A DNA stretch of 64,000 bases from a virus. The DNA is taken from positions 1 to 64,000 of the IMG/VR virus record IMGVR_UViG_3300028563_000018; one strand, written 5' to 3'. Below the pieces are notes generated by a model. It was given only the letters and a program-made list of their open reading frames with translations. It was not told where the DNA came from and did no database searches. The position numbers and the translations under genes are program-made. Of the stretch, positions 12,740 to 62,466 are shown piece by piece; the stretch's first letter is position 1; the number at the start of each line of letters is the position of its first letter.

Positions 12740-12794
12740 TCGGGACCTGCCGGCAAAGCGTCTCCCGAGCCGAACCCCACAGGAGTTGCAGATC
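12740..12794 (+). promoter_or_regulatory. leader element A (hairpin loop CCTGCCGGCAAAGCG + AACCCCACAGGAG + GCAGATC)
   Basis: Stem TCGGGA/TCCCGA encloses the conserved loop, immediately upstream of ATG 12796. Confidence 0.8.
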
Positions 12795-12795
12795 A

Positions 12796-13416
12796 ATGAG
12801 TATTTTCAATCGCGACCGCGATCAAGAGGAAGAGCAAGTCGAAGCTGGTGACGGGAGTGAGGGCATCGCAGCCCCGGTAGTCGCCGACCCGCCGGTCGAG
12901 GCCGTCGAAGCTGTCGAAGAGCAGCAGGACGAAATCGACGGTTGGGAAGACCCCGAGCCTGCGCACGCGAGCACGGAGTCGCCCGAGGAACCGCCGACCG
13001 AGGAAGAGCAGCTCGACGACGACGAGCGTCGCCCTCGCGGGTGGCTCGAGTCCGACATCGAGAAGCTGATCAAGGCGATCCAGTCGGGTGAGGTGACGAT
13101 CGATCCGGTCGGCGCTCCGCTCACGCCGCACCTTCTGTCCAAGACCCTCACTAACGTCGAGGGGCTCGCGAAGGCGCCGTCCACTGGTGCCGTCTCGGCG
13201 GTGCTCGACCGGTGGGTCAACGTCGGTGCGGCCGAGACGAGTTCCAGGCCGTACGCGTTTGTCGACTTCACCCCCCAGGCGAAGGAGCACGGTATCGCCG
13301 GTCTCAAGCAGGCAATCAAGGACCAGCGCAAGGCCGAGAAGCAGGCCCAGAAGGACGCCGACACCGAGGCAGCGAAGCAGGCCGCGATCGAGGCTGCGGC
13401 TGACGCGGCGGAGTAG
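12796..13416 (+). CDS. acidic hypothetical protein, possibly nucleic-acid binding
   Basis: RBS AGGAG; E/D/P-rich N-terminus, compact central domain, K/A-rich C-terminal helix. Confidence 0.7.
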   Translation: MSIFNRDRDQEEEQVEAGDGSEGIAAPVVADPPVEAVEAVEEQQDEIDGWEDPEPAHASTESPEEPPTEEEQLDDDERRPRGWLESDIEKLIKAIQSGEVTIDPVGAPLTPHLLSKTLTNVEGLAKAPSTGAVSAVLDRWVNVGAAETSSRPYAFVDFTPQAKEHGIAGLKQAIKDQRKAEKQAQKDADTEAAKQAAIEAAADAAE

Positions 13417-13962: not shown

Positions 13963-13991
13963 TTGAAGCGTGATCTATCACGCAATAGCTT
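13963..13991 (+). promoter_or_regulatory. sigma-A-like promoter with a palindrome in the spacer
   Basis: TTGAAG-N17-TAGCTT; GCGTGAT-CT-ATCACGC at 13968-13983. Confidence 0.6.
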
Positions 13992-14006
13992 GCTTTCTTA
14001 CCAGGG

Positions 14007-14076
14007 GGCGGCGCGTCCTGCCGGCAAAGCGAACGCGCGCCACCTGCCTTTGCCGAACCCACAGGAGTACCTTCAG
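14007..14076 (+). promoter_or_regulatory. leader element B
   Basis: GC stem around CCTGCCGGCAAAGCGAAC (14017-14034), then AACCCACAGGAG (14056-14067), upstream of ATG 14077. Confidence 0.8.
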
Positions 14077-14898
14077 ATGGCCCTTGTTCCCAGCGCGCCC
14101 GGACTCGAGAACTACACCGGGATGGACGACCTCAGTCCTGAAGACCTGACGATGCCTCGGTTGGCAATCGGGTCGAACGAGAACGCAGGTGTGTTCATCG
14201 ACAGCCAGACCTCGCAGAAGTTCAGCGAGGTCGACATCATCATCCTCGGGATCATCAAGCAGCGGATCTTGTGGCCCGCCACGATGGGCGACCAGAAGTC
14301 GAACCCGCTGTGCCGGTCGTACGACTTCGACCGCGGTCATCCCGACGAGGACAAGTTCCCCTGGAAGCAGAGCGGCTACGACAAGGCCGTCATCCTCGGA
14401 ACCGAAGACAAGACGATCCCCTGCGACGCGTGTCCGTTGAAGGACTGGGGTTCGCACCCGGCGCGCGAGAAGGTGCCGTGGTGCAACGAGCAGATCGTGC
14501 TCGCGATCCTGTTGGCGCCGAGTTACTCCCCGGCGATCCTGACAGTGCAGGGATCGGGGCTCAAGCCGACCAGGGCGTACCTGACGAGCTTCACGCGTGA
14601 TCGGCTCCCGCCCTTCAACTGCGTCACGCACGTCGAATTGGACGTGAACACGCGCGGCACCGTCACCTACAGCGTGCCGAGGTTCAGCAAGCCCGGCGAG
14701 CAGACCGACGTCGACAAGTACGGCGAGTACGTCACGACGTACGAGGGCATGCGCAGGTTCGTGCAGACGCCCAGGTCTCGTGATGACGAGAATACCGACG
14801 CGACTCCCGCTACGTCTACGGCGAAGAGCACGCCCGCACCAGCTCCCGTAGCTGCGAGTGATGTCGATGCCGACGACGACGGGCCGCTTCCCTTTTAG
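14077..14898 (+). CDS. single-stranded DNA-binding-like protein
   Basis: Flexible P/A/T linker and acidic 'DDDGPLPF' SSB-Ct-like tail; replication-gene context. Confidence 0.6.
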   Translation: MALVPSAPGLENYTGMDDLSPEDLTMPRLAIGSNENAGVFIDSQTSQKFSEVDIIILGIIKQRILWPATMGDQKSNPLCRSYDFDRGHPDEDKFPWKQSGYDKAVILGTEDKTIPCDACPLKDWGSHPAREKVPWCNEQIVLAILLAPSYSPAILTVQGSGLKPTRAYLTSFTRDRLPPFNCVTHVELDVNTRGTVTYSVPRFSKPGEQTDVDKYGEYVTTYEGMRRFVQTPRSRDDENTDATPATSTAKSTPAPAPVAASDVDADDDGPLPF

Positions 14899-14904
14899 TT
14901 CTTC

Positions 14905-15002
14905 GCGCGCGTCCGGCTCCCCCAATACGGACGTGCGTTGGGTCGGCCCCATCGCTCGCGAGGACCCCCAACCTCGTTGAGCATCCCCGCTGGGGCCGAC
15001 CC
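14905..15002 (+). ncRNA. 6C-like structured RNA with C-rich loops
   Basis: Hairpin 14905-14938 with loop GCTCCCCCAATA; hairpin 14940-15002 (GGGTCGGCCCCA/TGGGGCCGACCC) with apical loop ACCCCCAA. Confidence 0.55.
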
Positions 15003-15049
15003 GCCGTTCTATCTCCGCGTGGAAACCCAACCCGATATCGAGGTACGGC

Positions 15050-41015: not shown

Positions 41016-42035
41016 TTACGCGACAGCGGCGAGGTCGTTGTAGAGGGTCGCGGTGAGGATCGGCGTCGCTGCGACCGGGCGCACGGCCTGGATCTCGATG
41101 TCGAACTCGATGACGTCGTCACCGCTGGGCTGCAAACCGAACGGCTTGATGACGGCCGACCCAATGTCGAACGAGCACGAATACAACGTCGCCGCGGTAC
41201 CCGTGATGAACTCGTAGGTCTGGACCGTGATGACGACGTGCTCGTGTGTGACGAGCCCGCCAGCGGCAGTGGCGGAAGACGTGCCGAACACGGCCTCCCG
41301 GTAGAACGCCGCCGACGCGGGACGCACCTTGGCGCCACAGGTGACCAGGCGCCGCTTCTCGGTAGTGTCCCCGAGGAACAGTGAGCCGATTCGGAAGTCG
41401 TTATCCTCGAGCTGGTTGTTGATGTCGAAGCTGAACGTCTTCGCCGGAAGCGCAACACCGCCGAGGGTGATCGTGCAGTTCGACGCCACCACTGCGGGCG
41501 TGTTGTCGAAGCTCGGGCTCGCCGTCGCCGACGCGGTGGGAACTGCGATCTGCGAGAGAGCGACGAGGTCGCAGGTGCCCATGAGCAAGCCAGTGGCGTC
41601 GGCCTCCAGGTGAAGCGCGTTCACCTTGGCGTCGGTGTACCGGAAGTGGTCGAAGTTATTGCCGATGTTCTCTTCGACGGAGAGCCAAGGAAGGTTGCTC
41701 ACGTCGACCGGAGTCATGACGTGCTTCATGGCGCCGGACTCGGGGTTGTTGTTGGTGTCAGTGTTCGTCCCGAGTGCTCCGTAGAGCAGCGTCGCGAACG
41801 AATCCATGCGGGGGTAGAAGGCGTACTGCCCCTTGAATGCGATCGGGCCGAGGTACGCGTCCACCACGTCGCGACCGCCACCGATTTCGGCGTCGGGGAT
41901 GATCAGGTCGCGCGTGCCTGCAAGCGCACCACTGCGCGTCTTCATGAACACGCCACCGCTGCCGGGGCTGCGGTAGGTGCCCTTGGACACCTGGGTGCGG
42001 AAACCAACGCTGCCCGACTGAGCGGTGAACCCCAT
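41016..42035 (-). CDS. major tail (tube) protein
   Basis: ~339 aa, beta-rich, starts MGFTAQSG; synteny. Confidence 0.8.
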   Translation of the reverse strand: MGFTAQSGSVGFRTQVSKGTYRSPGSGGVFMKTRSGALAGTRDLIIPDAEIGGGRDVVDAYLGPIAFKGQYAFYPRMDSFATLLYGALGTNTDTNNNPESGAMKHVMTPVDVSNLPWLSVEENIGNNFDHFRYTDAKVNALHLEADATGLLMGTCDLVALSQIAVPTASATASPSFDNTPAVVASNCTITLGGVALPAKTFSFDINNQLEDNDFRIGSLFLGDTTEKRRLVTCGAKVRPASAAFYREAVFGTSSATAAGGLVTHEHVVITVQTYEFITGTAATLYSCSFDIGSAVIKPFGLQPSGDDVIEFDIEIQAVRPVAATPILTATLYNDLAAVA

Positions 42036-42091
42036 GATCTGCCTCGCTGTGGGTTTGTGCGGCCCGTTCGCTTTGCCGGCAGTGGGCCTGC
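42036..42091 (-). promoter_or_regulatory. leader element C
   Basis: GGCCC/GGGCC stem around ACTGCCGGCAAAGCGAAC, then AACCCACAGCGAGGCAGATC-ATG. Confidence 0.8.
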
Positions 42092-47104: not shown

Positions 47105-48955
47105 TCAGGCGTCCCGCAACGACCAGGAGTTCTGCTTCGTCACATAGAAGGTGCTCAAGCGAACGTGCCCTTTCTCGTGCAGGGCAATTCGCACGCCTGG
47201 AGGCGTGACTGTGTGCATCGCCACGGCGTGACCCGGTGTCATCGAAACGCCGACACCAGTCAGGAACAGCGTCCTTGAGGCGTAGTCGGCGAAGGACACC
47301 CCAAAATGGACGGAACACACCGCGCCAGATGGCAACACCGTCACGTGTGTATGAAGATTCGGAACTCCGACGTGGATCACACAAGACGCACCGGTTGCCA
47401 TGATTCCGTTCGAGCTCACCAGCGGCGAACCAGCGGCAGCGGCACTCGCCAATCCAGAGGGCAAGATCACGTAACGACTATGAAGAGTGCACGAGCCAGC
47501 ACTCGCGGACGACGCAACACCCGAAGGATGAATCTTTATCGTGCTAAGGAGCGTCACGGAGCCAGGGGTGGCAGCAACCGCCAGACTAGGGACCGCGATC
47601 GAGCCAGCTCGCGAAATAACGGTGTTGCCGGCCGTCACAGAAACGGCCTTCCCTGCGGGATGCATCGCGTAGCTCGGCGTCACGCTCGTTGATCCGGCGG
47701 TACAGGAAATCGACTTCCCTGTGGTGCTGATGTGCGCAATCGACTTCACACCCGGCGCGCCTGGCGTAACAGAGCAAACGAACCCCGTCGAAGAAATCGA
47801 TACGGCGCCGGGATGCAGCACGACAGATCCACATGTCACCGAGCACGCGAGTCCAGACGGAAGGACGTGTGCGATCGACTTGACGGCAGGGGTCCCGGTG
47901 GCAACCGAACACGAGAACCCAGTCGTCGAGACAGTAACGGCGCCTGCGTGCATTGAGATGGATCCCGCGGTGACGCTGCATGAAGCGCCCGTCACGGCAA
48001 CAGTGTTACGTCCCTTGACGGTCGGCGAACCCACATTGACCGAGCACGAGAACCCAGTCAGCGACCTCGAAACGGACCCCGGATGCAAGATCGGCGCACC
48101 ACACGCGACCGAACAGGAGAAACCAGTAGCCGAGATATATGAAATACCTTTCACAGTTGCGGATCCCGCCGTGACCGTGATGGCTTTTCCGGTTGTCGAA
48201 AGAGTGTTCTTGCTCTTTACGCTGACTGATCCTGGAGTCACCGTGCAAGCGACGCCAGTCGGGCTGATCGTTTGGAGCGGAGGTGCCGCCTTCCAGAGGG
48301 CGACACAAGCCGCCCACGTACCCGAGACGCTGAGCGTGGCCTGGTAAGTCTGTGCAGTCGCCGAAGAGAGAATGGCAGACCCAGTGATGGCGTTGTTCGA
48401 TGACGCCGTCAGCGCTCCATGCGTGACTTCGGTCCCAGCGCCGAACGGTGAAAACTGTCGCGACGACACGGTGGTCGCACTACCACTGCCAGACAGAAAC
48501 GCTATGCAGCCGATCGCCAGGTCCGCAGATCCGGCAGGAGTACCCGACGACCCAGAGGACGGAGACGTACTCGAAGCAGGCGTTCCTGCGTGAGAAACGT
48601 CAAGCGCCCCGGCGCCAGCGACCTCATAGAACTGCGATTGAACACCAGTCGAGTCGGCGAGCGCGATCGTAAAACTCGTGATGGATGCGGCGTTGGTGGT
48701 TGCCCAAATCGACGCTTCGCGATTGAACGCCGCGGTCGAAGAGACAATGCGCGTCCAAGTGTTGCCGGCGCTGTCGGTGACGCCCGTGACTTCCGGGTTG
48801 CCCGAGAAGTCAAACTTACTCAGCGTTGCGATCGCAAGGATCAGAAGCGCTCCTGCGGCAGTTGCCGTCAGTCCAGTCTTCTGATGTGAGGTTGCATTGG
48901 TCGCATCGTCGTAGGTGACGCCTGCGCCGCTACCATTCGTGATCGTGATTGCCAC
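47105..48955 (-). CDS. Ser/Thr-rich fibre/appendage protein with ~20-aa repeats
   Basis: Repeated 'TGFSCSVxxG' units; same repeat family as the adjacent esterase gene. Confidence 0.65.
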   Translation of the reverse strand: MAITITNGSGAGVTYDDATNATSHQKTGLTATAAGALLILAIATLSKFDFSGNPEVTGVTDSAGNTWTRIVSSTAAFNREASIWATTNAASITSFTIALADSTGVQSQFYEVAGAGALDVSHAGTPASSTSPSSGSSGTPAGSADLAIGCIAFLSGSGSATTVSSRQFSPFGAGTEVTHGALTASSNNAITGSAILSSATAQTYQATLSVSGTWAACVALWKAAPPLQTISPTGVACTVTPGSVSVKSKNTLSTTGKAITVTAGSATVKGISYISATGFSCSVACGAPILHPGSVSRSLTGFSCSVNVGSPTVKGRNTVAVTGASCSVTAGSISMHAGAVTVSTTGFSCSVATGTPAVKSIAHVLPSGLACSVTCGSVVLHPGAVSISSTGFVCSVTPGAPGVKSIAHISTTGKSISCTAGSTSVTPSYAMHPAGKAVSVTAGNTVISRAGSIAVPSLAVAATPGSVTLLSTIKIHPSGVASSASAGSCTLHSRYVILPSGLASAAAAGSPLVSSNGIMATGASCVIHVGVPNLHTHVTVLPSGAVCSVHFGVSFADYASRTLFLTGVGVSMTPGHAVAMHTVTPPGVRIALHEKGHVRLSTFYVTKQNSWSLRDA

Positions 48956-49799: not shown

Positions 49800-50972
49800 T
49801 CAGGTAGCAAGCACCTCGAGCACATAGGACAGGTCGAGGTGAGGGAACACCGGGAACGCCTTGATGCCGGTGCCTGCGTCGATGCCCCACGGGTCTTGCG
49901 AGGGCGGCGTCTCCCACTCGTAGTACCCGGAGGTCCAGTTGCCCTCGGGGTGTGGCGAGGTGAGCGTCTTGCCCCAACCCATCGCGTCGTCGAGCGCGTC
50001 GACCGACTGCTGCGAAGGCAGGAACAGGATCTTGTTGTCCGGCGAGAAGCGGTGCATGGTCCGCGTCGTCGCACCGTGCGCCCGAGTGAAGAACACCGAG
50101 TCGTACGGCTGAATCGAGATGCCTGTCGCTCGCTGGAACACGGCGAGTGCGGCTTGGATGCCGTCGCCCCAGTCGGGCAGCACGTACCGAGGGTCGATGA
50201 CCCCCGACGACGGACCACCAGCGACCGCCATGCCGGTGAGCGCAGCGAACTTGGAGCTCGTGACGATGTTGCGGATGACCTTCTCGGAAGCGAGAGCACG
50301 AGTGATCTCGACGCCGTAGTTGTCACGCATGAACTGCTTGACGGTGAGAGCGTTGCCGATTGGGTCGGCAGAGGTGCTGTCCCACGGCGTCACCGACGCG
50401 CCAGCCGAAGTCGTGGACAACGGAGCGCCACCGGTCTGCTGACCCGCCGGACGCTTGTAGTCGACGCTCAGGATGACCTTGCCGTCGTTGTAGGCGATCA
50501 CGCCTTCCCACATGGCCTGCATGATCAGCCACTCGAGACGGTTGTCGAGCTTCTTGCGCCGAAGGACCGCGTCACGCGCGTACCGACGATTGAAGTCGTC
50601 GAGGATGCCCGTCGTGATGGTGAGCGGAAGCGCGGACGGAAGCAGACCGTTGAGGTAGATCGCCTCCTGATACTTCGACACGTCGCTCGCCTGGTAGTGG
50701 TCCTTGATCGCCCAGTCGATGAGCGACGCCTGCCCCGTACCGAAGGTGTCTTCCTTCGCTGCGAGTTCGGACTCAGCGTCCTCTGCGCGAGCAGAGGCCA
50801 GACCGTCGGCCGTGTTCTGCACGTACTGGAAGATCACGTCATCGCTGTTGACGCTCTCAAACGGTGCGTACAGGTTGAGCCCGATGTGATCCTCAGGGAA
50901 GGAGCGCTCGCGGATGAGCCCGAGCATCTCTTCCTTGCGAACCAAACGATCCTGTGACGGGAACGTCGCCAT
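49800..50972 (-). CDS. major capsid protein (lambda gpE-like)
   Basis: 390 aa after protease and decoration genes; 'RLEWLIMQAMWEG...VDY', 'QDPWG...AFP'. Confidence 0.85.
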   Translation of the reverse strand: MATFPSQDRLVRKEEMLGLIRERSFPEDHIGLNLYAPFESVNSDDVIFQYVQNTADGLASARAEDAESELAAKEDTFGTGQASLIDWAIKDHYQASDVSKYQEAIYLNGLLPSALPLTITTGILDDFNRRYARDAVLRRKKLDNRLEWLIMQAMWEGVIAYNDGKVILSVDYKRPAGQQTGGAPLSTTSAGASVTPWDSTSADPIGNALTVKQFMRDNYGVEITRALASEKVIRNIVTSSKFAALTGMAVAGGPSSGVIDPRYVLPDWGDGIQAALAVFQRATGISIQPYDSVFFTRAHGATTRTMHRFSPDNKILFLPSQQSVDALDDAMGWGKTLTSPHPEGNWTSGYYEWETPPSQDPWGIDAGTGIKAFPVFPHLDLSYVLEVLAT

Positions 50973-51032
50973 CTTCCGAATCTCCTCGTACCGTGGGTTT
51001 GTGACGGAGTCGCTTTGCCGGCAGGCCCGTCA
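50973..51032 (-). promoter_or_regulatory. leader element D
   Basis: TGACGG/CCGTCA stem around GCCTGCCGGCAAAGCGACT, then AAACCCACGGTACGAGGAG upstream of the capsid ATG. Confidence 0.8.
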
Positions 51033-52700: not shown

Positions 52701-52759
52701 GAGTGAGCACGATAAATGGACGTCTTACGAGTGCGCCACGGTTGCACGCAAATCTTTAT

Positions 52760-53029
52760 CTAAATAACGCGCGCCAGCACTCTCGGGATAGGTTCATCAG
52801 GTTGAACCTCGACGCGGTCTTTGCCAACAATGACCTGCGTCCACCTGAGACATTCCCGGCATGCGACGTCCACAGTGCCGGCCGTCACGACGACTTCACC
52901 GAACACGCGACCCTGCTTGAACACCTTCAGGTGGACATACGCCTCACCGCGTTCGGTGATACCGTAGACCGCGAGTTTGGGATGGCGCGAACAGAAGCAG
53001 CGCAAGTCGTGCTCTGTGCGCGCGGGCAT
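52760..53029 (-). CDS. small zinc-ribbon protein (Mu Com-like)
   Basis: 'DLRCFC...KLA...VACREC'. Confidence 0.5.
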   Translation of the reverse strand: MPARTEHDLRCFCSRHPKLAVYGITERGEAYVHLKVFKQGRVFGEVVVTAGTVDVACRECLRWTQVIVGKDRVEVQPDEPIPRVLARVI

Positions 53030-54795: not shown

Positions 54796-56666
54796 CAAGG
54801 TCTCCAGGTCGTAGGAGGCAACGGAGCACGGACACCCGAAGCCCCCATAAATGCGGGGTGCGAGAGGCCGGATCCGCCAACTGCAACTTGTTGTTCCTGT
54901 CGCTCTTGCCGACGGTTCTCAAACGAGACGACTTTGCGTCGAAAGGCTCGATCGCCCATCAGCTTGTAAGTGACAGCCGCTACAGCATCGGCTACGTCCT
55001 TGGAGCCGCGCAAGGCTGGGTGGTCGATCTTCTTGCCCTGATCGACGAGTTCAGACATCTCTTTCAAGATGATCGGCACCAACTCCGTCGAGCCATGATC
55101 GATGTGAACCATGTAAGGAGGCAATTCGATGCGGTCTTCGTACAGAGCGTCGCGCAGGTCGTAGTAAGGCACGAGATCCTTGTCGACCGAAACAACCTCA
55201 CTGAAGATTCGACGCGCCTGCAACTGCTGGCGCGTGTCGACGCCCTGGAAGCCGTCGAGGCTCACGAACTTCAACTTGAACTTTCGATAGTCCTTCAACG
55301 AATAGATGAACTGGCGAACAGCTTGCAGGTATACCTCGCCACCTGCGGGAGCCTTCACGCGGTAGCAGAGGTCGATGACGATGTAGGGCTTGAGTTCGCC
55401 GCCGACTTCCTCGACGCCCTGAACGTGACCCATCGCGAACCCAAGGCTGTCGCCCTTGGCGCTGTAGGCGATGTCGATGTGACCGACACGCGGGATCGAA
55501 TCCGTCGCCATGAAATCGCGATCGAGAATTCCCTCCGGCGACACCGGCGACACCGGGCCGTATCGTTGCTGCCAGCGATCGATCGCTTCCTCGATCTTGT
55601 GCGGCATGCTGATGAATGGATCGCCGACCGCCGGCGGGATGCCAGCGAGGTCTTTCAGTGCCTTCTCGGGCGCCGAGTCGAACTCGCGCTTGTAGAGCGT
55701 CGGGATTCTGATGATCGTGTCGCTCGAGCCGAGCACCGTCGCGAGCTGTTCGGTGATGACCTGCTTGCGCTTCGTGTCGTACGGAAAGGTGTGGTACTCG
55801 CCACACGTAGCGCCGACAGCAAGCGCCTCATTCTCGGGGTGCGGGCCAACCTTCTTGCACTGATACTGCTCATGCTTGAGCCCGTACGACTCCCAAATCG
55901 TCATACGCTTCGCGTAGGCGTCGTCCCGATCGCTGAACTCTTCAAACATCCGGTGAGCGAACCCGTCCCCGCTCTTCATCTGCCCGATGACGAGCACGAA
56001 ACCCTTGTCGCCGAACCGGGAATCGACACGGTTGGCGATGGTCTCGTAACCGATCTGCGCGTAGTCCTTGGTCGCCGTGACGATGTGCGAGTCGGCCTCG
56101 TCGAGGATGCCGCCCAGGATGTTGTAGCCCTCAAAGGTCGTCTCGTGACTGTCGCCAGGAAGGATCCAGATCTCTTTCGGAAATCGAAGTTGGTTCTTGA
56201 AGATCGGATCGTACGGGAAGTTCTGAAACCACCGCGAGTGCTTGATCCGTGCCTTAATATCGCCGAAGACGACTTCCTTGGCTTGCGTCTCACTCGTCGA
56301 CATCTGCATGAAGGCGATGCGCGAACCGGGCAGCAGGTTGTAGTACTCCTGCGGATCTTCCATGCAGAGCACGTAGTGGGAGAGATAACTCAGAATCACC
56401 GATGCAATTGTCGTCTTGCCGATCCCAATCGCGCCGGTCAAGATCCCGCGCGCGACCTCCGTGATGTGGTCGCCTGAGGTCTCCTCGCCAAACAGATCAA
56501 CGAGACACTCCTTGATGGAGGTGCGGATCCGAGCGGCGACATCGAGGTAGCCGACATCGAGAAACTCTAGGATCGTTGCCGGCCGTTGCTCAAACTGGGA
56601 ATTCTTCTTCAGCCAGTTGAGTTCGTAGACCTGGTCAAAACTCGGAGTCGTCAGGCTCTTCGCCAT
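54795..56666 (-). CDS. terL: terminase large subunit
   Basis: Walker A 'GAIGIGKT', Walker B 'GILDEA', nuclease 'HIDIA', 'LDGFQ', 'SKDVADAV'. Confidence 0.9.
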   Translation of the reverse strand: MAKSLTTPSFDQVYELNWLKKNSQFEQRPATILEFLDVGYLDVAARIRTSIKECLVDLFGEETSGDHITEVARGILTGAIGIGKTTIASVILSYLSHYVLCMEDPQEYYNLLPGSRIAFMQMSTSETQAKEVVFGDIKARIKHSRWFQNFPYDPIFKNQLRFPKEIWILPGDSHETTFEGYNILGGILDEADSHIVTATKDYAQIGYETIANRVDSRFGDKGFVLVIGQMKSGDGFAHRMFEEFSDRDDAYAKRMTIWESYGLKHEQYQCKKVGPHPENEALAVGATCGEYHTFPYDTKRKQVITEQLATVLGSSDTIIRIPTLYKREFDSAPEKALKDLAGIPPAVGDPFISMPHKIEEAIDRWQQRYGPVSPVSPEGILDRDFMATDSIPRVGHIDIAYSAKGDSLGFAMGHVQGVEEVGGELKPYIVIDLCYRVKAPAGGEVYLQAVRQFIYSLKDYRKFKLKFVSLDGFQGVDTRQQLQARRIFSEVVSVDKDLVPYYDLRDALYEDRIELPPYMVHIDHGSTELVPIILKEMSELVDQGKKIDHPALRGSKDVADAVAAVTYKLMGDRAFRRKVVSFENRRQERQEQQVAVGGSGLSHPAFMGASGVRAPLPPTTWRP

Positions 56667-58017
56667 CGTCCTCAACCTCGATGACGACATCTGGGGGTGC
56701 CGGAAGTGCAACCTGCGGGTTGAACGACGCGATCAACTCAGGTGTGATCTGGTCGATCGTGTAACCCTGGCCTTTGAGTTCCTGAATCGTCCGGGCCATC
56801 TGAACCTGGGGTGTCTCGACAGCCTGTGCACTGCCACCGACACTGATTGCCACCTTTGGCCCAGTGAATCGACCTGGAGCGAGGAGCTTCGCCATCGTCA
56901 CGCCCCGGTCGAACAGGCTGTTGGCGAGCCTCGTCACTTCCGGGTCGAGAGGAGTGCCGTCTTTGCCGCCGAACTCCACCTCAACATCAAGGGCGTGCTC
57001 GAGCCGTTCGGTGTGCACAGACAAGACCGCGCCCAGGCCGTCGATGACCTGGTCAGCGTCACGAGACCGAAACAGCTTGGCGAGCGAGGCCGTCTCAGAT
57101 TGAGGCAAGGAACACACCTGTCCGTCACGGAAGTACTTGCAACTTGGCGCCAAAGAGCACGTGTCGCAGTGGACTTTGTCGCCGACGGTAGCATTGACTT
57201 GTTTGCTCATGGGACTCAATGTCGTCGGAATCACATGATCTTTTGCGTCAGGATCCACGACAATCTTGCCGCGCGAGCGGAATGGAATGTCCTCCTTGAA
57301 ATGTTCAGCCGCCCATTCGGCACTCCGCATGTTGTAGAGCGTCCGGTTGCGTGGAACCTTCAGGTCCGCGTTCTTGAATCCGAGCAGCGCGATCCACTTG
57401 GCCCAGCGACCTACGTCCTTCTCGTGAATGCGTTTGCCGTTCGGCAGCATCACCATGTCGCCGCGACCGAGCTCGAAAGGATCCAGATCAATCGACTTGA
57501 AATCGAGCCCAAACATCACACGGAAACTCGCGAGACCCGTCATGTGCAATGTCGCCGTCGGGTATTCAGCTTGAAGATCGCGGATGGTCGAAGCAAACCG
57601 ACGACCGATGCCAAGTTGCATACCGGGAGCGCTGGTGATGACGACCCGGTGTTCCTGTCCGTAAACCGGACGTTCGTGCAGCCCACAACGAGTGTCGTTG
57701 CACGCAGCCCAATCGGCGCCCACGGGGGTTGCGATCAATTCCTCCAACGTGGCGATGTCGTCGAGCTTGTAATCCCACGTGGGATACACGGCTTTCGGCC
57801 TCGCTCGCGTCCAACCACGGCGTAGCTCGGCGGTCCCGTCAGGAGCGATGACGAGCATTCGATAGTCAAGGGGGGGCGCTAGAAAGAGATCGGCGAAGCG
57901 ATCGATGTCAACGCTGCGTCGCTCAAGAAAGCTCGCGTTGAACGCGAAGAGCGTTGCCCCGTGTTCCAGTGCCTCACGCACGTACGGTTCCGCGTTGCGG
58001 TACCAGACTTCCACCAT
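56635..58017 (-). CDS. large protein in the small-terminase position
   Basis: First gene of the late operon, overlapping terL; Cys cluster 'CDTC...C...C' and helical C-terminus. Confidence 0.5.
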   Translation of the reverse strand: MVEVWYRNAEPYVREALEHGATLFAFNASFLERRSVDIDRFADLFLAPPLDYRMLVIAPDGTAELRRGWTRARPKAVYPTWDYKLDDIATLEELIATPVGADWAACNDTRCGLHERPVYGQEHRVVITSAPGMQLGIGRRFASTIRDLQAEYPTATLHMTGLASFRVMFGLDFKSIDLDPFELGRGDMVMLPNGKRIHEKDVGRWAKWIALLGFKNADLKVPRNRTLYNMRSAEWAAEHFKEDIPFRSRGKIVVDPDAKDHVIPTTLSPMSKQVNATVGDKVHCDTCSLAPSCKYFRDGQVCSLPQSETASLAKLFRSRDADQVIDGLGAVLSVHTERLEHALDVEVEFGGKDGTPLDPEVTRLANSLFDRGVTMAKLLAPGRFTGPKVAISVGGSAQAVETPQVQMARTIQELKGQGYTIDQITPELIASFNPQVALPAPPDVVIEVEDDGEEPDDSEF

Positions 58018-58156
58018 TGCGACATTGTCGCGGGCTTGCGCTCTGTCTCGGAAACGTGCAGGGCGATCCAGAATAAAGATGTACCCCAGGCAGTTCCAGA
58101 TACAACGGTGCAGTGGTTACGTTGTGAACCCGGCATGCACGCTGGGTGAGGTTCGG

Positions 58157-58208
58157 AAAAAGAAAAGGGGCCAGGGGTGCCTGCCGGCAAGCGAACCACC
58201 CCTGGCCC
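58157..58208 (-). terminator. intrinsic terminator of sRNA-1
   Basis: 12-bp stem GGGCCAGGGGTG/CACCCCTGGCCC followed on the - strand by TTTTCTTTTT. Confidence 0.8.
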
Positions 58209-58248
58209 AACCCACAGCGAGCAGATCCGTAGATCCTCCTGCCGTGTC
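58157..58248 (-). ncRNA. candidate antisense sRNA-1 (terminated late-operon leader)
   Basis: Own promoter, 5' hairpin with cUACGg loop, terminator hairpin whose loop GUUCGCUUGCCGGCAGG is complementary to leader elements A-D. Confidence 0.75.
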
Positions 58249-58254
58249 CACGCA

Positions 58255-58283
58255 ATCATATTCTCAAGATGATGCCGTGACTA
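58255..58283 (-). promoter_or_regulatory. sigma-A-like promoter
   Basis: TAGTCA-N17-TATGAT on the - strand. Confidence 0.7.
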
Positions 58284-58332
58284 GCCAAGGATCTGTTACC
58301 AAACCACTCAACGTGGTCAACTAGGAACAGCC

Positions 58333-59061
58333 TTGAGTAATGATCTGGTCAACGCTCTGGCCCGCAGGTTCATTCATCGAACCGACGTGAAGGCTTGGCA
58401 ACACACCGATGGTGCGTACTACCCAGATCGCACCCCAATCACACGTGCCGATCTGAACGCGCACGTTGCAGGCACAAAGACTCTCGGCCACTACCTGCTC
58501 GGTACAGACAACAAGTGTAAATTCGCCTGCTTTGACATCGACCTGAACGTCGATGGTCTCTGGGACGGCGAACCCTACAAACCACGCGAAGAGTTCGCGA
58601 ACCCGGACAGTCCCTACCGAGAGGGCTTAATCGGTCAGCTCGCTTCGACGGCCGAAGTCTTGGCGCGCCATGCACACAAGATACTTGGTGTCGATGTAGC
58701 CATCTCGTTTTCCGGGGCGAAGGGCTGTCATGTTTACCTTTTGACCGGCCTGGACATCGCCGCCGACGTACGTGCTGCCGCGGTAACCGTGCTCGAAGCT
58801 GTCGGGCTTTGGCATCCCACGCGCGGCCAGAACTTCTACGGGAGTGACAACCCCGAGTCGGCATACACGATCGAGGTCTTTCCCAAGCAAGACACACTCG
58901 ATTCCAAGGATCTCGGAAACCTGCTCAGGTTGGCTCTCGGGATAAACCGTAAGTCTGGCAAGCCAGGACTCTTCCTGCGCGTCGGCGGCGGAAAGCGCGC
59001 CTCGTTCCACGCGATGGATCCCATTGCGGCGCTGAGCGGGGAACTGCCGTGGAAGAACTAA
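58333..59061 (+). CDS. archaeo-eukaryotic primase (prim-pol) domain protein
   Basis: 'CFDID', 'SGAKGCHVY', 'EVFPKQ...GNLLRL'. Confidence 0.8.
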   Translation: MSNDLVNALARRFIHRTDVKAWQHTDGAYYPDRTPITRADLNAHVAGTKTLGHYLLGTDNKCKFACFDIDLNVDGLWDGEPYKPREEFANPDSPYREGLIGQLASTAEVLARHAHKILGVDVAISFSGAKGCHVYLLTGLDIAADVRAAAVTVLEAVGLWHPTRGQNFYGSDNPESAYTIEVFPKQDTLDSKDLGNLLRLALGINRKSGKPGLFLRVGGGKRASFHAMDPIAALSGELPWKN

Positions 59062-60911
59062 CCGTCGCGCAGCGTCTAGCGCGAGCTCGCGAGCGAGGGC
59101 TCATCAAGGCTGTCCCTGAACCGACACCAGAGGTTCCCGACACTCTCGCTGACCTCGCCAAGACGGATCACGCCCGAGATGACGTCGATGTCGAGATCGA
59201 CGGCATCCTGAACATCGGCATCGACGAGGCCTACCGCAAATGGTGCGGCAAGTCTGAGCCGAACCTGACGGGCAAGCGCGAGTCGATCATGGTCTCGTGC
59301 CCGAAGCCCGACCATCTCGACAAGAACCCGTCGGCGTGGCTGAACCTCGACAAGGGCACGTGGTTCTGTGGGGGTTGCCAGGAGGGTGGGGACGGCTACG
59401 ACATCGCGGCCTACCACTTCGGCTACGCCGTGCCGGGCTACAAGCAGGGCGAGTCGTTCCGGAAACTGCGCGTCGACATGGCCAAGTCGCTCGGTTACAG
59501 AGTCAAGACGACCATCAGCGGCACAAGCTATGTCGACAACGAGCCAGAAGCGCGCCGTGACGACACGCCAGCCGCGCCGGCGCAGCTCGAGCAGGACTCC
59601 GACCAACAGCCTTCGGCGCAGATCATCGAGTTTCCACTACCACAGGAACTTCAGCCGCTTTCAATCGACTGGAAGAGCATCCTTCCGGCCGAGACGTTCC
59701 TCGCTCAATGGATGCAAGCCACCTCAGAGGACGACTTGCCCGAGGAGTATTACTTCTGGCTCGGCTTGATGGCGGTAGGGCTCGCTGCTGGCGACCAGGC
59801 GGTGCTCACCGACGACCCCTGGATCAAAGGCAACCTCTTCGTCTGTCTGTACGGCCCATCAGGAATCGGCAAGACCCGAGCAGCCTCGCGCCTCGTGCGC
59901 CTTTTGTCGAAGGCGCTACCTCACGACGATCAGGATCCCGCTAGCACAGGCACAATGCTTGTACCGATGCCCGGTTCTGCCGAAGCCCTCATTGACGCCT
60001 TCTCGAAACCCATCTTCGACCCGGCTGACCCTAAGAAGATCATCGGGTACGCAGGAGTTAGGGGTCTCGTTCGTTTCGACGAACTGTCATCTCTGATCGC
60101 TCGTTCCAATCGCGTCGGCAGTGCCATCAAGCCGACGCTCATGGAGTTCTTCGACAGCTACACCGCCGTTGACATCGTGAGCCGAGGAGCGGGCCGCGTC
60201 CGCGCCGAGCACCACTTCGCAGCCTCGGTCGCTTCTACCCAGCCAGGAGCGATTCGTGATCTCCTCGTTCAAACCGATGCTGACTCTGGATTCATCAACC
60301 GATGGGTCTTTGCTTCGGGACCGCTCAAGCCGCTCCGCTCATACCGAACCACGTCTATCGACATCGACCACTTGAAACAACCCCTCAATGAACTGCGTCA
60401 ATGGAGTTCATTGAGACATCACGAAATCAAGCTCGAGGGACCTGCGCTGAGCGTGTGGACTTCGTTCTTTCAATCAACGATCGAGCCGATCAGAGTCTCC
60501 AGCGATAAGCCACTCCTCACGAGGATTGACCTCCTGCTCAAGAAGATCATCCTTCTGTTCTGTATCAACGAGAAGAGCGATGCCCCCGACGCCGCGCTCG
60601 TCGAACGCGCGATCAGCCTGTTTCCGTACCTGGAGCGCAGCTACAACCTCCTTGTCGGCGAAATCGGAGTCGGCCCTCAACAGGACTGTCGCACGAAGAT
60701 TCTCGCCGCCGTCGAAACGATCCAAGCCAAGACAGGGAAGGGTGCAACCGTGCGACAGATACATCAACGCCTCGGGAAAAGATTCGCTCCCGACATGATC
60801 GTGCGAACGATCCGAGCGATGGAAGATCTCCGAGATATTCAAGAGGTCATTCAACAAGGAGCACGCGGCCCCAAGACGGTCGCCTACATGCTGGTCGGTA
60901 ACGATGCCTGA
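59049..60911 (+). CDS. primase-associated helicase-like protein (CHC2-type zinc finger + DUF3987-like P-loop)
   Basis: 'CPKPDHLDKNPS...WFCGGC', 'GPSGIGKT', 'FDELS', 'SGFINRW'. Confidence 0.75.
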   Translation: MEELTVAQRLARARERGLIKAVPEPTPEVPDTLADLAKTDHARDDVDVEIDGILNIGIDEAYRKWCGKSEPNLTGKRESIMVSCPKPDHLDKNPSAWLNLDKGTWFCGGCQEGGDGYDIAAYHFGYAVPGYKQGESFRKLRVDMAKSLGYRVKTTISGTSYVDNEPEARRDDTPAAPAQLEQDSDQQPSAQIIEFPLPQELQPLSIDWKSILPAETFLAQWMQATSEDDLPEEYYFWLGLMAVGLAAGDQAVLTDDPWIKGNLFVCLYGPSGIGKTRAASRLVRLLSKALPHDDQDPASTGTMLVPMPGSAEALIDAFSKPIFDPADPKKIIGYAGVRGLVRFDELSSLIARSNRVGSAIKPTLMEFFDSYTAVDIVSRGAGRVRAEHHFAASVASTQPGAIRDLLVQTDADSGFINRWVFASGPLKPLRSYRTTSIDIDHLKQPLNELRQWSSLRHHEIKLEGPALSVWTSFFQSTIEPIRVSSDKPLLTRIDLLLKKIILLFCINEKSDAPDAALVERAISLFPYLERSYNLLVGEIGVGPQQDCRTKILAAVETIQAKTGKGATVRQIHQRLGKRFAPDMIVRTIRAMEDLRDIQEVIQQGARGPKTVAYMLVGNDA

Positions 60912-61125
60912 GTACCTAGACATCCCCCAAGTAGCCGAGATGTTCGGCGTCAACCCACGCACCGTCTACAAGTGGACAGTCGAACGCAAGATTCCATTCT
61001 TCAAGCTGAACAAGATGATCCGGTTCAGCCGAACCGAGATCGAGGCGTGGCTCGAGCAGCATCATCACCGCGTGATCGATGAGACTACGTTGGCGGAACG
61101 TACAGACGTCCGACTCGATCACTGA
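60904..61125 (+). CDS. xis: excisionase-like HTH protein
   Basis: 'YLDIPQVAEMFGVNPRTVYKW...IPFFKL...IRF'; convergent with the integrase. Confidence 0.8.
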   Translation: MPEYLDIPQVAEMFGVNPRTVYKWTVERKIPFFKLNKMIRFSRTEIEAWLEQHHHRVIDETTLAERTDVRLDH

Positions 61126-62191
61126 ACGCTTCGTCTCCATGTGGGAACAGGTGCCCGTAGCGGTCGAGCACGAACGCCGCCGACGCATGCCCGGCACGCA
61201 GTGCGATCTCCGCTGGTGACACGTTGGCGGATATCCAGATCGACACCGCGGTGTGACGCAGAGCGTGCGGCGTGAGGGGCGCTAGGCCAGCCCTCACGGC
61301 TGCGGGGTTGAACGTCCGCGCTCGCCATGCGCTCGGCGTGATCCAGCCGCCCTGCGAGGCGTGAAAGACTAGATCGTCAGTGCCGCCGTGTTGCTCCTGG
61401 TGGGCTCGCAGGAGGTCGGTGACGGCCGAGGGGATCGGCACGCGTCGAGTCGAGCGTCTCGTCTTCGGAGGACCGAACGCTACGCGCCCTTTCACCTCTA
61501 CGAGGATCTCGCTCACCTGCACCGCGCTGGCATTGAAGTCGACCCGCGACCATTTGAGGCCGGCGAGTTCACTGATTCGCAGCCCTCCGTATGCGCCCAA
61601 CATGACGAGTGCGCTGTACTGCGGCTCGATGACACCTGCGAGCTTCGACACCTCCTCGGGCGTCAGGAATCGCATGTCCCGGTGCACGCGCTCGGGAAGC
61701 ATGATGTCTCGACAGGGATTTCGACTGAGCATCTGCGCCTGCACGGCGCCAGCAAGTGTCTTGTTGAGAATCTGGTAGCACAGTCGGACCGTATTCGCCG
61801 ACAACCCTTTCGCTACCAGGTCGTCGACTGCCGTCTGGATCGAACGCTGCGTGATCTCATCCAACCGCAGCTTGCCCAGCGCGGGCACCAGATGGTTCTT
61901 AAAGATGTGTGCGTGCTGAGCGCGCGTGTTTCCTCGCAGCGAGGGCGCCTGACTCACCTGGAACGCTGCGGCCCACGCGTCGAACTTCATGCGCGTGTTG
62001 CGCGGATCGGTCGCGGTGCCACGCTCGACGGCAAGCACGAGCTCGTGCTGCCAGTCGTCAGCGGAGCGCTTCGCCTCGCGGAGCCCGAACTTGCTCACAG
62101 AGAACCGCTTGGATCGTCTCGAGCCATCCGGCATACGAACGACACCCTTGAAGGCGCCGCGATCGTTCTCCACCCAACCGGAAGCTCGCAC
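61085..62191 (-). CDS. int: tyrosine integrase
   Basis: N-terminal arm domain; 'GLRISELAGLKW', 'PKT', 'HALRHT', 'AGH...RYGH'; GTG start 6 nt after a TACGAT -10 (leaderless). Confidence 0.92.
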   Translation of the reverse strand: MRASGWVENDRGAFKGVVRMPDGSRRSKRFSVSKFGLREAKRSADDWQHELVLAVERGTATDPRNTRMKFDAWAAAFQVSQAPSLRGNTRAQHAHIFKNHLVPALGKLRLDEITQRSIQTAVDDLVAKGLSANTVRLCYQILNKTLAGAVQAQMLSRNPCRDIMLPERVHRDMRFLTPEEVSKLAGVIEPQYSALVMLGAYGGLRISELAGLKWSRVDFNASAVQVSEILVEVKGRVAFGPPKTRRSTRRVPIPSAVTDLLRAHQEQHGGTDDLVFHASQGGWITPSAWRARTFNPAAVRAGLAPLTPHALRHTAVSIWISANVSPAEIALRAGHASAAFVLDRYGHLFPHGDEAFSDRVGRLYVPPT

Positions 62192-62202
62192 GGTCGCATC
62201 GT

Positions 62203-62466
62203 AGTGGGGGCAGAGTGGGGGCAAATCGCGTCGCGTGTAAATGCGGCGCGTTGTGCTACATCGTGCTCGGGTATCAAAAAGATCCGAGAAACACGGGATT
62301 TTTGTGCGCTAGATCGTGCAAGATCGTTTCATTCCGTGTGTCTGGAATGGGCGATATTCGATTGCATGTACTAACACTCCCCAAATCTCGGGATCGAGCC
62401 CTTGACCAGGGCTTTTACTGCCCTTTTACGGGTTCCACGGGGGATGTGGGGACAGAAATAGGGGCA
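62203..62466. other. probable attP with paired arm-type sites
   Basis: AGTGGGGGCA x2 (62203, 62214) and TGTGGGGACA/AATAGGGGCA (62445, 62457) flank an AT-richer non-coding stretch next to int. Confidence 0.6.

What the first reader, a model, noticed from the sequence alone, without database searches (positions are those of the whole stretch)
58157..58283. Phage sRNA-1: a terminated late-operon leader that is antisense to four highly expressed phage mRNAs
Seen in sequence: on the - strand, TAGTCA-N17-TATGAT (58283-58255) precedes a ~90-nt unit ending in a 12-bp GC stem plus UUUUCUUUUU. Its terminator loop GUUCGCUUGCCGGCAGG is complementary, with one bulge, to the loop CUGCCGGCAAAGCG(AAC) in the leaders of the major capsid, major tail, SSB-like and 12796 genes. 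Its GAUCUGCUCGCUGUGGGUU segment is complementary to the AACCCACAG-SD-CAGAUC stretch covering those RBSs (19 of 20 nt for the tail leader). The unit points into the late operon that starts at 58017. Established: P1 C4 and P4 CI are antisense immunity RNAs acting through two target boxes, and lambda pR'-tR' makes a short terminated late leader. Inference: terminated leader RNA silences abundant lytic proteins in trans through loop-loop kissing and RBS occlusion, and read-through would remove the repressor while transcribing late genes. I do not recognise this as a described family.
Basis: partly seen in the sequence, partly recalled or inferred. Interest (0 to 1): 0.95.

Follow-up and report, generated by a model that had tools for sequence, protein, structure and literature searches.

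The report
Phage late-leader hairpin mirrors gene leaders
An uncultured soil phage has, just upstream of its virion-gene operon, a short promoter-to-terminator unit whose hairpin loop and flank mirror a structured tag in front of four of its genes; it may be an antisense RNA regulator, but on the other strand the same DNA is a fifth copy of that tag ahead of the primase gene, and no transcript data exist.

Summary
The sequence observation is confirmed. The 72.9-kb virus record holds exactly five copies of a hairpin with the loop CTGCCGGCAA(A)GCG. Stems differ but always pair, and each hairpin is followed by AACCCACAG. Four copies sit in sense orientation before the capsid, tail-tube, 12796 and 14077 genes. 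The fifth (58168-58227, + strand) is, on the - strand, a 12-bp GC stem plus TTTTCTTTTT downstream of TAGTCA-N17-TATGAT.

Copy 5 is therefore also in sense orientation to the primase operon.

For a - strand RNA:
- 15 of 30 distant relatives have a promoter-like site upstream of the strongest hairpin on the terS strand, against 2 of 30 on the other strand.
- The - strand 5' hairpin uses three G-U pairs.
- No start codon follows copy 5 on the + strand.

Against it: the mirror relation is absent from relatives, an ATAAAGAT motif points to + strand transcription, and there are no RNA data.

Antisense late-leader RNA about 0.4; fifth sense leader about 0.3. Earlier, unchecked notes of this scan describe similar anti-leader hairpins in other phages.

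The parts
58255..58283 (-). Promoter-like site TAGTCA-N17-TATGAT
   Evidence: 9 of 12 matches; the number of such sites in the region is at chance level. Its position is analogous to the TTGCGN-N17/18-TANNNT sites of relatives.
58157..58248 (-). Predicted short RNA of about 92 nt: a 5' hairpin, a terminator hairpin and a U-run. Its 5' end is inferred, not shown.
   Evidence: Fold of 58248-58156: -50.6 kcal/mol, z -4.30, 0 of 200 shuffles as stable.
58213..58246 (-). 5' hairpin of 13 pairs, three of them G-U. Its 3' arm is the anti-RBS segment.
   Evidence: -17.8 kcal/mol (z -3.18, 3 of 200 shuffles) on the - strand. The same bases on the + strand give -8.6 kcal/mol (z -1.85, 11 of 200).
58209..58227 (-). 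Segment GAUCUGCUCGCUGUGGGUU, complementary to the AACCCACAG-SD-CAGAUC stretch of the leaders
   Evidence: 19 of 20 against the tail-tube leader; only partial against the other three.
58168..58208 (.). Hairpin of copy 5: a 12-bp stem and a 17-nt loop. The loop carries CTGCCGGCAAGCG on the + strand and its complement on the - strand.
58157..58166 (-). U-run TTTTCTTTTT directly after the stem (an A-run on the + strand). It makes the hairpin an intrinsic-terminator-like signal on the - strand only.
   Evidence: 8 T in 10, the highest of 31 regions. The other leader copies have no such A-run.
58073..58080 (+). ATAAAGAT motif 101 nt upstream of the copy-5 loop, co-oriented with the primase gene. TACGTT follows 37 nt further on.
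   Evidence: 8 ATAAAGAT sites in the record, each co-oriented with the local genes. The spacing to the loop is 77 and 80 nt at copies 1 and 2.
56635..58017 (-). Terminase small subunit gene, first gene of the virion (late) operon
   Evidence: phrog_6902, 5.5e-54. The N-terminus aligns with terS of relatives.
58333..59061 (+). AEP-type DNA primase gene (TTG start, AGGAA Shine-Dalgarno), followed by the helicase gene 59049-60911
   Evidence: PF22548 3.5e-15 and phrog_5362 8.1e-60; helicase phrog_5311 2.5e-103
12740..12798 (+). Leader copy 1 (stem TCGGGA/TCCCGA) before gene 12796-13416
14007..14079 (+). Leader copy 2 before gene 14077-14898 (phrog_5686, function unknown)
42033..42091 (-). Leader copy 3 before the tail tube gene 41016-42035
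50970..51032 (-). Leader copy 4 before the major capsid gene 49800-50972. The hairpin starts about 20 nt after the stop codon of the upstream gene.

Best explanation
The hairpin at 58168-58208 lies in the divergent control region between terS (-) and the primase gene (+).

Most likely, the - strand is transcribed from a housekeeping-type promoter near 58255-58283 as the leader of the late operon. Transcription stops, at least in part, at the hairpin plus U-run. This gives a two-hairpin RNA of about 92 nt, or the same sequence at the 5' end of read-through late mRNA.

The hairpin is built on an inverted copy of the phage's own structured leader tag. The RNA therefore shows the complement of the invariant 14-nt loop in its terminator loop. 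Just 5' of that it carries the complement of the AACCCACAG-SD-CAGAUC stretch.

It is the only candidate in this genome for an RNA partner that reads the tag on the capsid, tail-tube, 12796 and 14077 messages. Pairing would start loop to loop and then spread over the ribosome-binding site, most fully on the tail-tube message.

Shown: the sequence relations, the folds, the stem covariation and the conserved leader architecture. Inferred: that the RNA is made, its ends, that it pairs in vivo, and the sign of the effect. Repression by RBS occlusion is the simplest reading; guided processing or stabilisation is not excluded.
For: 1. There are exactly five copies in the record. Four are in sense orientation directly before start codons.
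2. Stems covary around an invariant loop. Six of six hairpins have 6-13 pairs, with 2-5 pair types at each of the five inner positions, and the chance of 6 or more pairs is 0.010 per site.
3. The contig L203 has a tail-tube protein only 53% identical (68 of 129). It keeps the loop 14 of 14 and AACCCAC with a different stem. The loop sequence is therefore under selection and needs a sequence-reading partner.
4. Copy 5 alone has a 12-bp perfect GC-rich stem and an A5GA4 run, which read as a terminator on the - strand only.
5. No start codon follows copy 5 on the + strand and its Shine-Dalgarno is weakened. Even so, 19 of 20 nt of the tail-tube RBS stretch are kept.
6. In relatives, a promoter-like site precedes the strongest hairpin on the terS strand in 15 of 30, against 2 of 30 on the other strand. 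Examples are L123, L125, L129, L130, L149 and L161.
7. The 5' hairpin is twice as stable on the - strand, because three G-U pairs become A-C mismatches on the + strand.
8. Pairing is favourable after unfolding costs. ddG is -10.8, -23.0, -19.1 and -13.5 kcal/mol, against -3.0 +/- 2.4 for 298 random windows, of which 2.3% reach -10.
Against: - There are no RNA data of any kind.
- The promoter match is weak. The -35 TAGTCA fails the strict pattern, and such sites occur at chance frequency.
- Read on the + strand, the element is an ordinary fifth copy in sense orientation to the primase operon. An ATAAAGAT motif lies 101 nt upstream, as at copies 1 and 2.
- The copy-5 loop lacks one A, so loop pairing has a bulge.
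- RNAfold pairs part of the terminator loop internally, and it sequesters the anti-RBS segment in the 5' hairpin.
- The mirror relation is absent from relatives. Six loci within +/-10 kb and four complete genomes give only 10-14-mers that lie in apparently coding sequence.
- T-rich tails are not clearly strand-biased in relatives: 8 against 5 of 31. Their hairpins may be leader structures rather than terminators.
- Duplex energies of the single segments are matched by a few unrelated windows.
- The loop contains the palindrome GCCGGC, so part of the complementarity holds for either strand.
Confidence: 0.4

Rival explanations
1. Copy 5 is a fifth sense member of the leader family. It is transcribed on the + strand as part of the 5' untranslated region of the primase-helicase operon. 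All five loops are read by a protein, from the phage or the host. The - strand U-run only serves to keep stray - strand transcription out of the late operon.
For: - The orientation and internal order (hairpin, then AACCCACAG) are the same as in the four other copies, and they point at the real primase gene 58333-59061.
- ATAAAGAT lies 101 nt upstream of the loop, against 77 and 80 nt at copies 1 and 2. All 8 ATAAAGAT sites are co-oriented with the local genes.
- TACGTT lies 37 nt after ATAAAGAT, the same spacing as TAGGGT at copy 1 (read by eye).
- The hairpin-to-terS distance is 140 nt here but 34-42 nt in L123, L125, L129 and L130. This fits an inserted + strand promoter module.
- The inner UGC/GCG mini-stem of the sense hairpins is kept in copy 5.
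Against: - No start codon follows the tag. The primase start is 105 nt further on and has its own Shine-Dalgarno.
- The Shine-Dalgarno-to-start stretch of the tail-tube leader is kept without anything to translate.
- Neither the 12-bp stem nor the A-run is needed for a sense role.
- The downstream inverted repeat folds poorly on the + strand.
- The ATAAAGAT sites have no consistent -10 at a fixed distance.
- No RNA-binding protein was looked for or found.
Confidence: 0.3
2. The unit is only the late-operon leader hairpin, terminator or insulator that relatives also have. Its likeness to the leader tag is left over from an inverted duplication or recombination and has no function in trans.
For: - Relatives have a promoter plus hairpin at the same place, with unrelated loops and no mirror relation.
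- Copy 5 shows signs of decay relative to copy 3: one A missing in the loop, one G missing in the Shine-Dalgarno, and no ATG.
Against: The stem of copy 5 shares nothing with any other copy, while the loop and the 19-nt flank are nearly intact. That is the pattern expected from selection on loop and flank, not from a recent neutral copy. A chance origin of a 13-nt plus 19-nt match inside a terminator is negligible.
Confidence: 0.15
3. The motif acts at the DNA level. It could be a hairpin extruded in single-stranded DNA and read by the phage primase or another replication or packaging protein, or a double-strand binding site centred on the palindrome GCCGGC.
For: - The loop holds the palindrome GCCGGC.
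- The strands of the five copies (+ at 12.7, 14.0 and 58.2 kb; - at 42.1 and 51.0 kb) would also fit two replication arms leaving a point near the primase gene (inference).
Against: - Variable stems that always pair are not expected for a double-strand site.
- Four of five copies, and L203, sit 11-24 nt before AACCCAC(A/G)G, a Shine-Dalgarno and a start codon. That points to mRNA.
- Gene orientation explains the strand pattern equally well.
Confidence: 0.05

Closest known systems
Phage P1/P7 c4 antisense RNA. I read passages of the review PMC12197685. The primary paper, Citron and Schuster 1990, is known only from that review's reference list.
   Same: A short phage-encoded RNA pairs through short complementary boxes, thought to lie in loops, with a phage mRNA and blocks its expression.
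   Different: - c4 controls one operon (ant) for immunity; here there are four dispersed targets that include virion genes.
- There is no sequence or structure likeness: Rfam C4 (RF01695) gives no match in the record (the control genomes did not ring either) and none in the window at gathering scores.
- c4 is cut out of a longer transcript; here a promoter and a terminator would define the RNA.
Phage P4 CI RNA and the lambda PR'-tR' 6S leader (both recalled from my own knowledge, not read here)
   Same: - P4: a leader-derived RNA complementary to two boxes controls an operon that includes the primase.
- Lambda: a short terminated RNA is made from the late promoter, upstream of the late genes.
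   Different: - No Q-type antiterminator was found (PF06530 and PF03589).
- The lambda 6S RNA is not known to act as an antisense RNA.
- The P4 targets lie in the same transcript.
Start-associated sequences (SAS and ESAS) of Cluster K mycobacteriophages (PMC3203893, passages read)
   Same: - A phage-specific repeat lies directly before start codons of many genes, almost always in one orientation.
[quoted passage not shown]
- The authors leave open whether an RNA or a protein reads it.
   Different: - SAS is a 13-bp box that includes the Shine-Dalgarno.
- ESAS has conserved inverted repeats whose departures do not support RNA pairing, and the authors favour DNA binding.
- Here the stems vary and covary while the loop is fixed, and the tag marks virion genes as well.
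Loop-loop (kissing) antisense control of plasmids, such as CopA/CopT of R1 and RNA I/RNA II of ColE1 (recalled; PMC2879510 seen only as a search listing)
   Same: Regulator and target both present complementary sequences in hairpin loops. The regulator ends in a terminator hairpin.
   Different: The plasmid RNAs are cis-encoded and fully complementary to a single target. Here the RNA would act in trans on four targets, each through 13-14 loop bases and a second box.
Anti-leader hairpins noted earlier in this scan in other, mostly crAss-like, phages (e1-5797452, e1-6127544 and others; AI notes that I did not check)
   Same: A single hairpin whose loop mirrors a short tag next to the start codons of several virion genes.
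   Different: Most of those hairpins sit at the 3' end of an operon. This one sits in the late-operon leader. Its targets are themselves hairpins that present the tag in a loop. It is also ambiguous between the two strands.

Membership tests
Intrinsic (Rho-independent) terminator, - strand | GC-rich stem directly followed by a U-run | tested here: met
   The stem has 12 Watson-Crick pairs and folds at -26 to -32 kcal/mol. It is followed by TTTTCTTTTT, 8 T in 10. The consensus scan does not list it, because that scan allows loops of 3-8 nt only.
Intrinsic (Rho-independent) terminator, - strand | Transcription arrives on that strand and stops there | not testable with these tools
   No RNA run is available. 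The only support is a promoter-like site 47 nt upstream and the analogous architecture in relatives.
Trans-acting antisense sRNA of the c4 / CI kind | Two or more boxes complementary to the target next to its ribosome-binding site | tested here: met
   The loop box gives 13 pairs with one bulge on all four targets. The RBS box is 19 of 20 on the tail-tube leader and 9 plus 5-6 nt on the others. ddG is -10.8 to -23.0 kcal/mol.
Trans-acting antisense sRNA of the c4 / CI kind | The regulator RNA exists as a discrete species | not testable with these tools
   There are no expression data for this uncultured phage.
Trans-acting antisense sRNA of the c4 / CI kind | Regulator and targets change together in relatives | tested here: inconclusive
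   - The only relative with the tag (L203, 2.5 kb) lacks the regulator region.
- Distant relatives have neither the tag nor the mirror relation.
- Closer relatives exist only in assemblies I could not reach.
Rfam C4 family (RF01695) and every other Rfam family | Match to the covariance model at the gathering score | tested here: not met
   There were 0 matches in the window at gathering scores. The best local hits are sX2 at 17.9 bits against 40 and ctRNA_p42d at 13.2 against 50. C4 gave no match, but the control genomes did not ring either.
Lambda-type late leader with Q antitermination | A Q-family antiterminator is encoded | tested here: not met
   PF06530 and PF03589 gave no match in the record. 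The record is 92% complete, and other antiterminator types were not searched.
Structured 5' leader family of this phage (conserved loop, variable stem) | Loop CTGCCGGCAA(A)GCG closed by a stem of 6 or more pairs and followed by AACCC(C)AC(A/G)G | tested here: met
   Copy 5 on the + strand has all three features.
Structured 5' leader family of this phage (conserved loop, variable stem) | A Shine-Dalgarno and a start codon within about 25 nt after the tag | tested here: not met
   After CAGATC comes CGTAG with no start codon. The next gene start is TTG at 58333, 105 nt away.
Cluster K SAS / ESAS | A 13-bp box GGGATAGGAGCCC 3-7 bp before the start, and ESAS made of conserved 17-bp inverted repeats | tested here: not met
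   The sequence is different and the logic is the opposite (variable stems, fixed loop). Compare with the passages of PMC3203893.

The most novel reading that the evidence does not exclude
Four messages (capsid, tail tube and two early or middle genes) display the same 14-nt loop on hairpins with freely evolving stems. The leader RNA docks on them loop to loop through 13 pairs, then zips over the ribosome-binding site. This would couple the translation of abundant proteins to the termination or read-through state of the late promoter. It would be a virus-encoded RNA regulon with structured kissing-loop targets in an actinophage-like virus. It would also offer an explanation for the single reversed copies of start-associated repeats seen in Cluster K mycobacteriophages.
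Probability: 0.3. Interest if true: 0.85.

Novelty: new variant of a known kind. Interest (0 to 1): 0.55.

Why it matters
Phage antisense RNAs known from print control single immunity or switch genes. None is known to address several virion and replication messages through a shared structured tag.

The tag family itself looks like an undescribed RNA motif. The loop is invariant across relatives whose tail-tube proteins are only 53% identical. The stems covary, and no Rfam family matches.

If the late-leader RNA reads the tag, that would give a simple and testable model of how a temperate actinophage-type virus times or limits production of its most abundant proteins. It would also suggest what the puzzling start-associated repeats of mycobacteriophages, with their lone reversed copies, might be for.

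If copy 5 is instead only a fifth target, the open question becomes which protein or host RNA reads a 14-nt loop.

Tried and rejected
**Relatives by DNA**
- blastn of 56600-60900 against the phage collection found no match.

**Relatives by protein**
- tblastn with the primase, helicase and tail tube finds only Gordonia, Rhodococcus, Tsukamurella and Nocardia phages, at 45% identity or less.
- The search for related loci with single proteins found none. With an alignment it gave 58 IMG/VR loci at 43% identity or less.
- I scanned all 58 loci for the loop at up to 2 edits. No hit lay in a hairpin-plus-AACCCAC context.

**Pattern scans**
I did not examine them one by one.
- The composite patterns gave these true hits:
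  - viral contigs: 0 of 11
  - metagenome contigs: 1 of 12, which is L203
  - genome contigs: 0 of 13
  - the copy-5 loop variant in viral contigs: 0 of 1

**Loci used for the strand test**
- For some searches I used 37 of the 58 loci.
- I left out L127 (the same as L126 here) and L145, L151 and L157 (little upstream DNA).
- I also left out L162, L164-L167 and L169-L180 (short or weak matches).
- Six of the 37 had no terS on the divergent strand within 2.5 kb.
- L160 was dropped because its start call ran into a stop codon.
- Some of the remaining 30 are near-duplicates (L153 and L154), so the rows are not all independent.
- My first regex for terS starts missed most of them and was replaced by tblastn.
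- The hairpin finder missed the window's own terminator, because it tried only some lengths. One search repaired that.

**Other attempts**
- The MAFFT alignment of the six hairpins puts the 3' stems out of register. I therefore did not use the count of structure pairs or build a covariance model, and I counted pairs from the single folds instead.
- The alignment of the three ATAAAGAT-to-tag modules shows no likeness beyond the motifs.
- Expression: no RNA holder was listed.
- Laying contigs of 4 DNA runs (rhizosphere metagenomes) showed identical sequence wherever it was covered. Records span 58149-58334 and 58203-58686 with 0 differences. There is therefore no natural variation to use, and parts of the stretch were uncovered.
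- I looked for look-alike stretches in the scan's own index and found none.
- Single-segment duplex scans rank the targets high but not alone.
- Supplementary files of PMC3203893, which list the reversed SAS sites, could not be seen.
Full report
**Where the window comes from.** The window is bases 1-64000 of a 72,872-bp IMG/VR virus record, estimated 92% complete, with about 60% G+C. Its proteins resemble those of Gordonia, Rhodococcus, Tsukamurella and Nocardia phages of about 75 kb, at 45% identity or less. Genes run on the + strand up to about 31 kb. They run on the - strand from 58017 down to about 31 kb, in the order terS, portal region, capsid, tail tube, tape measure.

**The observation.**
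- TAGTCA-N17-TATGAT lies at 58283-58255 on the - strand.
- A 12-bp stem pairs 58208-58197 with 58179-58168.
- The 17-nt loop is followed by TTTTCTTTTT at 58166-58157.

The loop motif CTGCCGGCAAAGCG occurs exactly four times, at 12747+, 14018+, 42069- and 51011-. With up to 2 mismatches the search finds these same four sites, against 0.92 expected. The site at 58181-58193 (+) lacks one A. No other site within two edits exists in the whole record. The segment AACCCACAGCGAGCAGATC (58209-58227) is unique and equals the tail-tube leader minus one G.

**The leader family is real.** Each copy folds into a hairpin that presents the motif in a 16-18-nt loop. Within that loop, an inner U-G/G-C/C-G mini-stem closes a 6-7-nt apical loop. 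The stems have 6, 13, 7, 7 and 12 pairs and unrelated sequences. Each of the five innermost stem positions shows 2-5 pair types. The chance that a random site of this genome has 6 or more flanking pairs is 0.010.

A composite pattern scan of JGI metagenome contigs gave one true relative among 12 hits. This contig, L203, carries the same loop (14 of 14) and CAACCCACACAG, AGGAG and ATG before a tail-tube homologue. Its stem is again different (GCGCCCT/AGGGCGC). The hairpin begins 8 nt after the stop codon of the upstream gene. The tail-tube proteins are only 53% identical. Loop sequence and stem pairing are therefore both under selection, and the element works within mRNA. Rfam has no such family.

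The ORF 58333-59061 (+) is a real AEP-type primase gene (PF22548 3.5e-15; phrog_5362 8.1e-60). A helicase gene follows at 59049-60911, and 56635-58017 (-) is terS. The region 58017-58333 is therefore a divergent control region. Copy 5, on the + strand, has the same orientation towards the primase operon as the other four copies have towards their genes.

An ATAAAGAT motif occurs 8 times in the record, always co-oriented with the local genes. By my own rough estimate from base composition, about 0.6 would be expected. One copy lies at 58073-58080 (+), 101 nt before the copy-5 loop. The same motif lies 77 and 80 nt before the loops of copies 1 and 2. This is the main evidence for the rival reading, in which copy 5 is a fifth sense leader.

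**Evidence for a - strand RNA.**

1. *Features special to copy 5.* It alone has a long, perfect, GC-rich stem and an A5GA4 run on its 5' side. On the - strand these form a canonical terminator. A sense leader has no use for them.

2. *No gene behind the tag.* On the + strand the tag is not followed by a start codon (CAGATCCGTAG), and its Shine-Dalgarno is weakened. The primase start lies 105 nt further on, with its own AGGAA. The 19 nt that match the tail-tube RBS stretch are nevertheless kept.

3. *Comparative architecture.* In 31 of the 37 IMG/VR relatives I examined, terS is divergent from the primase gene. In 30 of these, I looked for a strict TTGNNN-N16-19-TANNNT site 15-130 nt upstream of the strongest intergenic hairpin (dG of -20 or below).
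   - Such a site is present on the terS strand in 15 of 30 and on the primase strand in 2 of 30.
   - Typical cases are L123, L125, L129 and L130. They show TTGCGN-N17/18-TANNNT, then 26-44 nt, a hairpin of -25 to -42 kcal/mol, and 34-42 nt to the terS start.
   - A promoter plus hairpin leader in front of terS is therefore a family trait.
   - The window fits this by position. However, its -35 (TAGTCA) fails the strict pattern, and by itself the promoter match is at chance level.
   - T-rich tails are not clearly strand-biased in relatives (8 against 5 of 31). The window's tail is the strongest of all.

4. *Strand-specific folding.* The predicted 93-nt RNA (58248-58156) folds into two hairpins at -50.6 kcal/mol, z -4.3. 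Its 5' hairpin has 13 pairs, three of them G-U. It scores -17.8 kcal/mol (z -3.18) on the - strand but only -8.6 (z -1.85) on the + strand.

**Would it pair?** After paying for unfolding, cofolding the RNA with the four leaders gains energy, as listed below.

| Target | ddG (kcal/mol) |
|---|---|
| gene 12796 leader | -10.8 |
| gene 14077 leader | -23.0 |
| tail-tube leader | -19.1 |
| capsid leader | -13.5 |
| 298 random 75-nt windows | -3.0 +/- 2.4; 2.3% reach -10 |

Loop-loop kissing is not modelled by this program. Single-segment duplex energies are high but are matched by a few unrelated windows. The anti-RBS segment is sequestered in the 5' hairpin and must open. The loop also contains the palindrome GCCGGC, so part of the complementarity holds for either strand.

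**Evidence against the trans-antisense reading.**
- No RNA data exist.
- Relatives' leader hairpins have unrelated loops and no complement anywhere near gene starts. Six loci and four complete genomes gave nothing, while the same script recovers copies 3 and 4 in this record.
- No Q-type antiterminator was found.

**Comparison with what is known.**
- The unit works like the c4 RNA of P1/P7, which uses short boxes in loops (review PMC12197685, passages). It is not a member of that family.
- It recalls the terminated late leader of lambda and the CI RNA of P4. Both comparisons are from memory.
- The target tags recall the start-associated sequences of Cluster K mycobacteriophages. For those, the authors report a single opposite-orientation copy in four genomes and leave an RNA reader open (PMC3203893, passages). 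SAS/ESAS have fixed repeats that do not support RNA pairing, the reverse of what is seen here.
- Abundant non-coding RNAs are known in mycobacteriophages (PMC5712189, passages), but not with this logic.
- Earlier notes of this scan describe anti-leader hairpins in other phages. I did not check them, and I treat them as leads only.

**Verdict.** My odds are as follows:

| Reading | Probability |
|---|---|
| Late-leader RNA that reads the tag in trans | 0.4 |
| Fifth sense leader of the primase operon, read by a protein | 0.3 |
| Late-leader hairpin or terminator with no trans role | 0.15 |
| DNA-level site | 0.05 |
| Something else | the remainder |

The first two readings are not mutually exclusive, since both strands may be transcribed. 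In that case the short RNA would also be a perfect cis-antisense to the primase leader.

Noticed in passing
window 12663-12670, 13931-13938, 58073-58080 (+); 47533-47540, 52753-52760 (-); beyond the window at about 69.6, 71.2 and 72.4 kb of the record (-): ATAAAGAT occurs 8 times, always co-oriented with the local genes. Three sites read ATAAAGATCC-N7-AGCT, and a variant (AAAAGACCC-N7-AGCT) lies at 23912. It could be a phage-specific promoter or a regulator site. No consistent -10 lies at a fixed distance.
   Followed up: partly
window 11596-12462 (+), 61085-62224 (-), 60904-61125 (+): There are two tyrosine-recombinase genes. One is a 288-aa XerC/D-like gene just upstream of leader copy 1. 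The other is a 379-aa integrase convergent with the helicase operon. An HTH_17 excisionase-like gene also lies at the end of the helicase operon.
   Followed up: partly
window 47769-48087: Three direct repeats of 49 nt, spaced 135 nt apart and 67-73% alike, lie inside the long - strand ORF 47105-48955. This suggests a repeated protein module.
   Followed up: no
L217 (Gordonia phage Monty) 5660-5693; L123 - strand just before terS: In Monty and L123 a -10-like TACTAT / TACATT lies 6 nt before the terS ATG (consensus GGTACWWTCNGTCCATG). This suggests a leaderless terS message. The window has GGGGTACATC 55 nt before its ATG, overlapping the ATAAAGAT site on the other strand.
   Followed up: partly
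G004:C1 about 26640-26703 (L232), before the tail tube gene: One 51%-identical relative has a 7-bp hairpin with a GGAA loop, followed by AAACCAAC and AGGAG before its tail-tube start. The layout is similar but there is no long conserved loop. Three other relatives and Monty have no hairpin there.
   Followed up: no
window 58230-58247: The 5' arm of the - strand hairpin reads like a sense tag with a strong Shine-Dalgarno (CACGGCAGGAGGAUC, close to the capsid leader). On the + strand it gives CCUCCU, like the anti-Shine-Dalgarno of 16S rRNA. The locus is thus an imperfect inverted duplication of the tag's RBS part.
   Followed up: partly
window 3943-15608 and 13456-13480 (earlier notes e1-6187670 and e1-6187669): The scan's notes report a second start-associated box (CCAACCCGACA) before six early genes, again with a single reversed copy. 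If true, this genome would have two tag families, each with one mirror copy. I did not check this.
   Followed up: no
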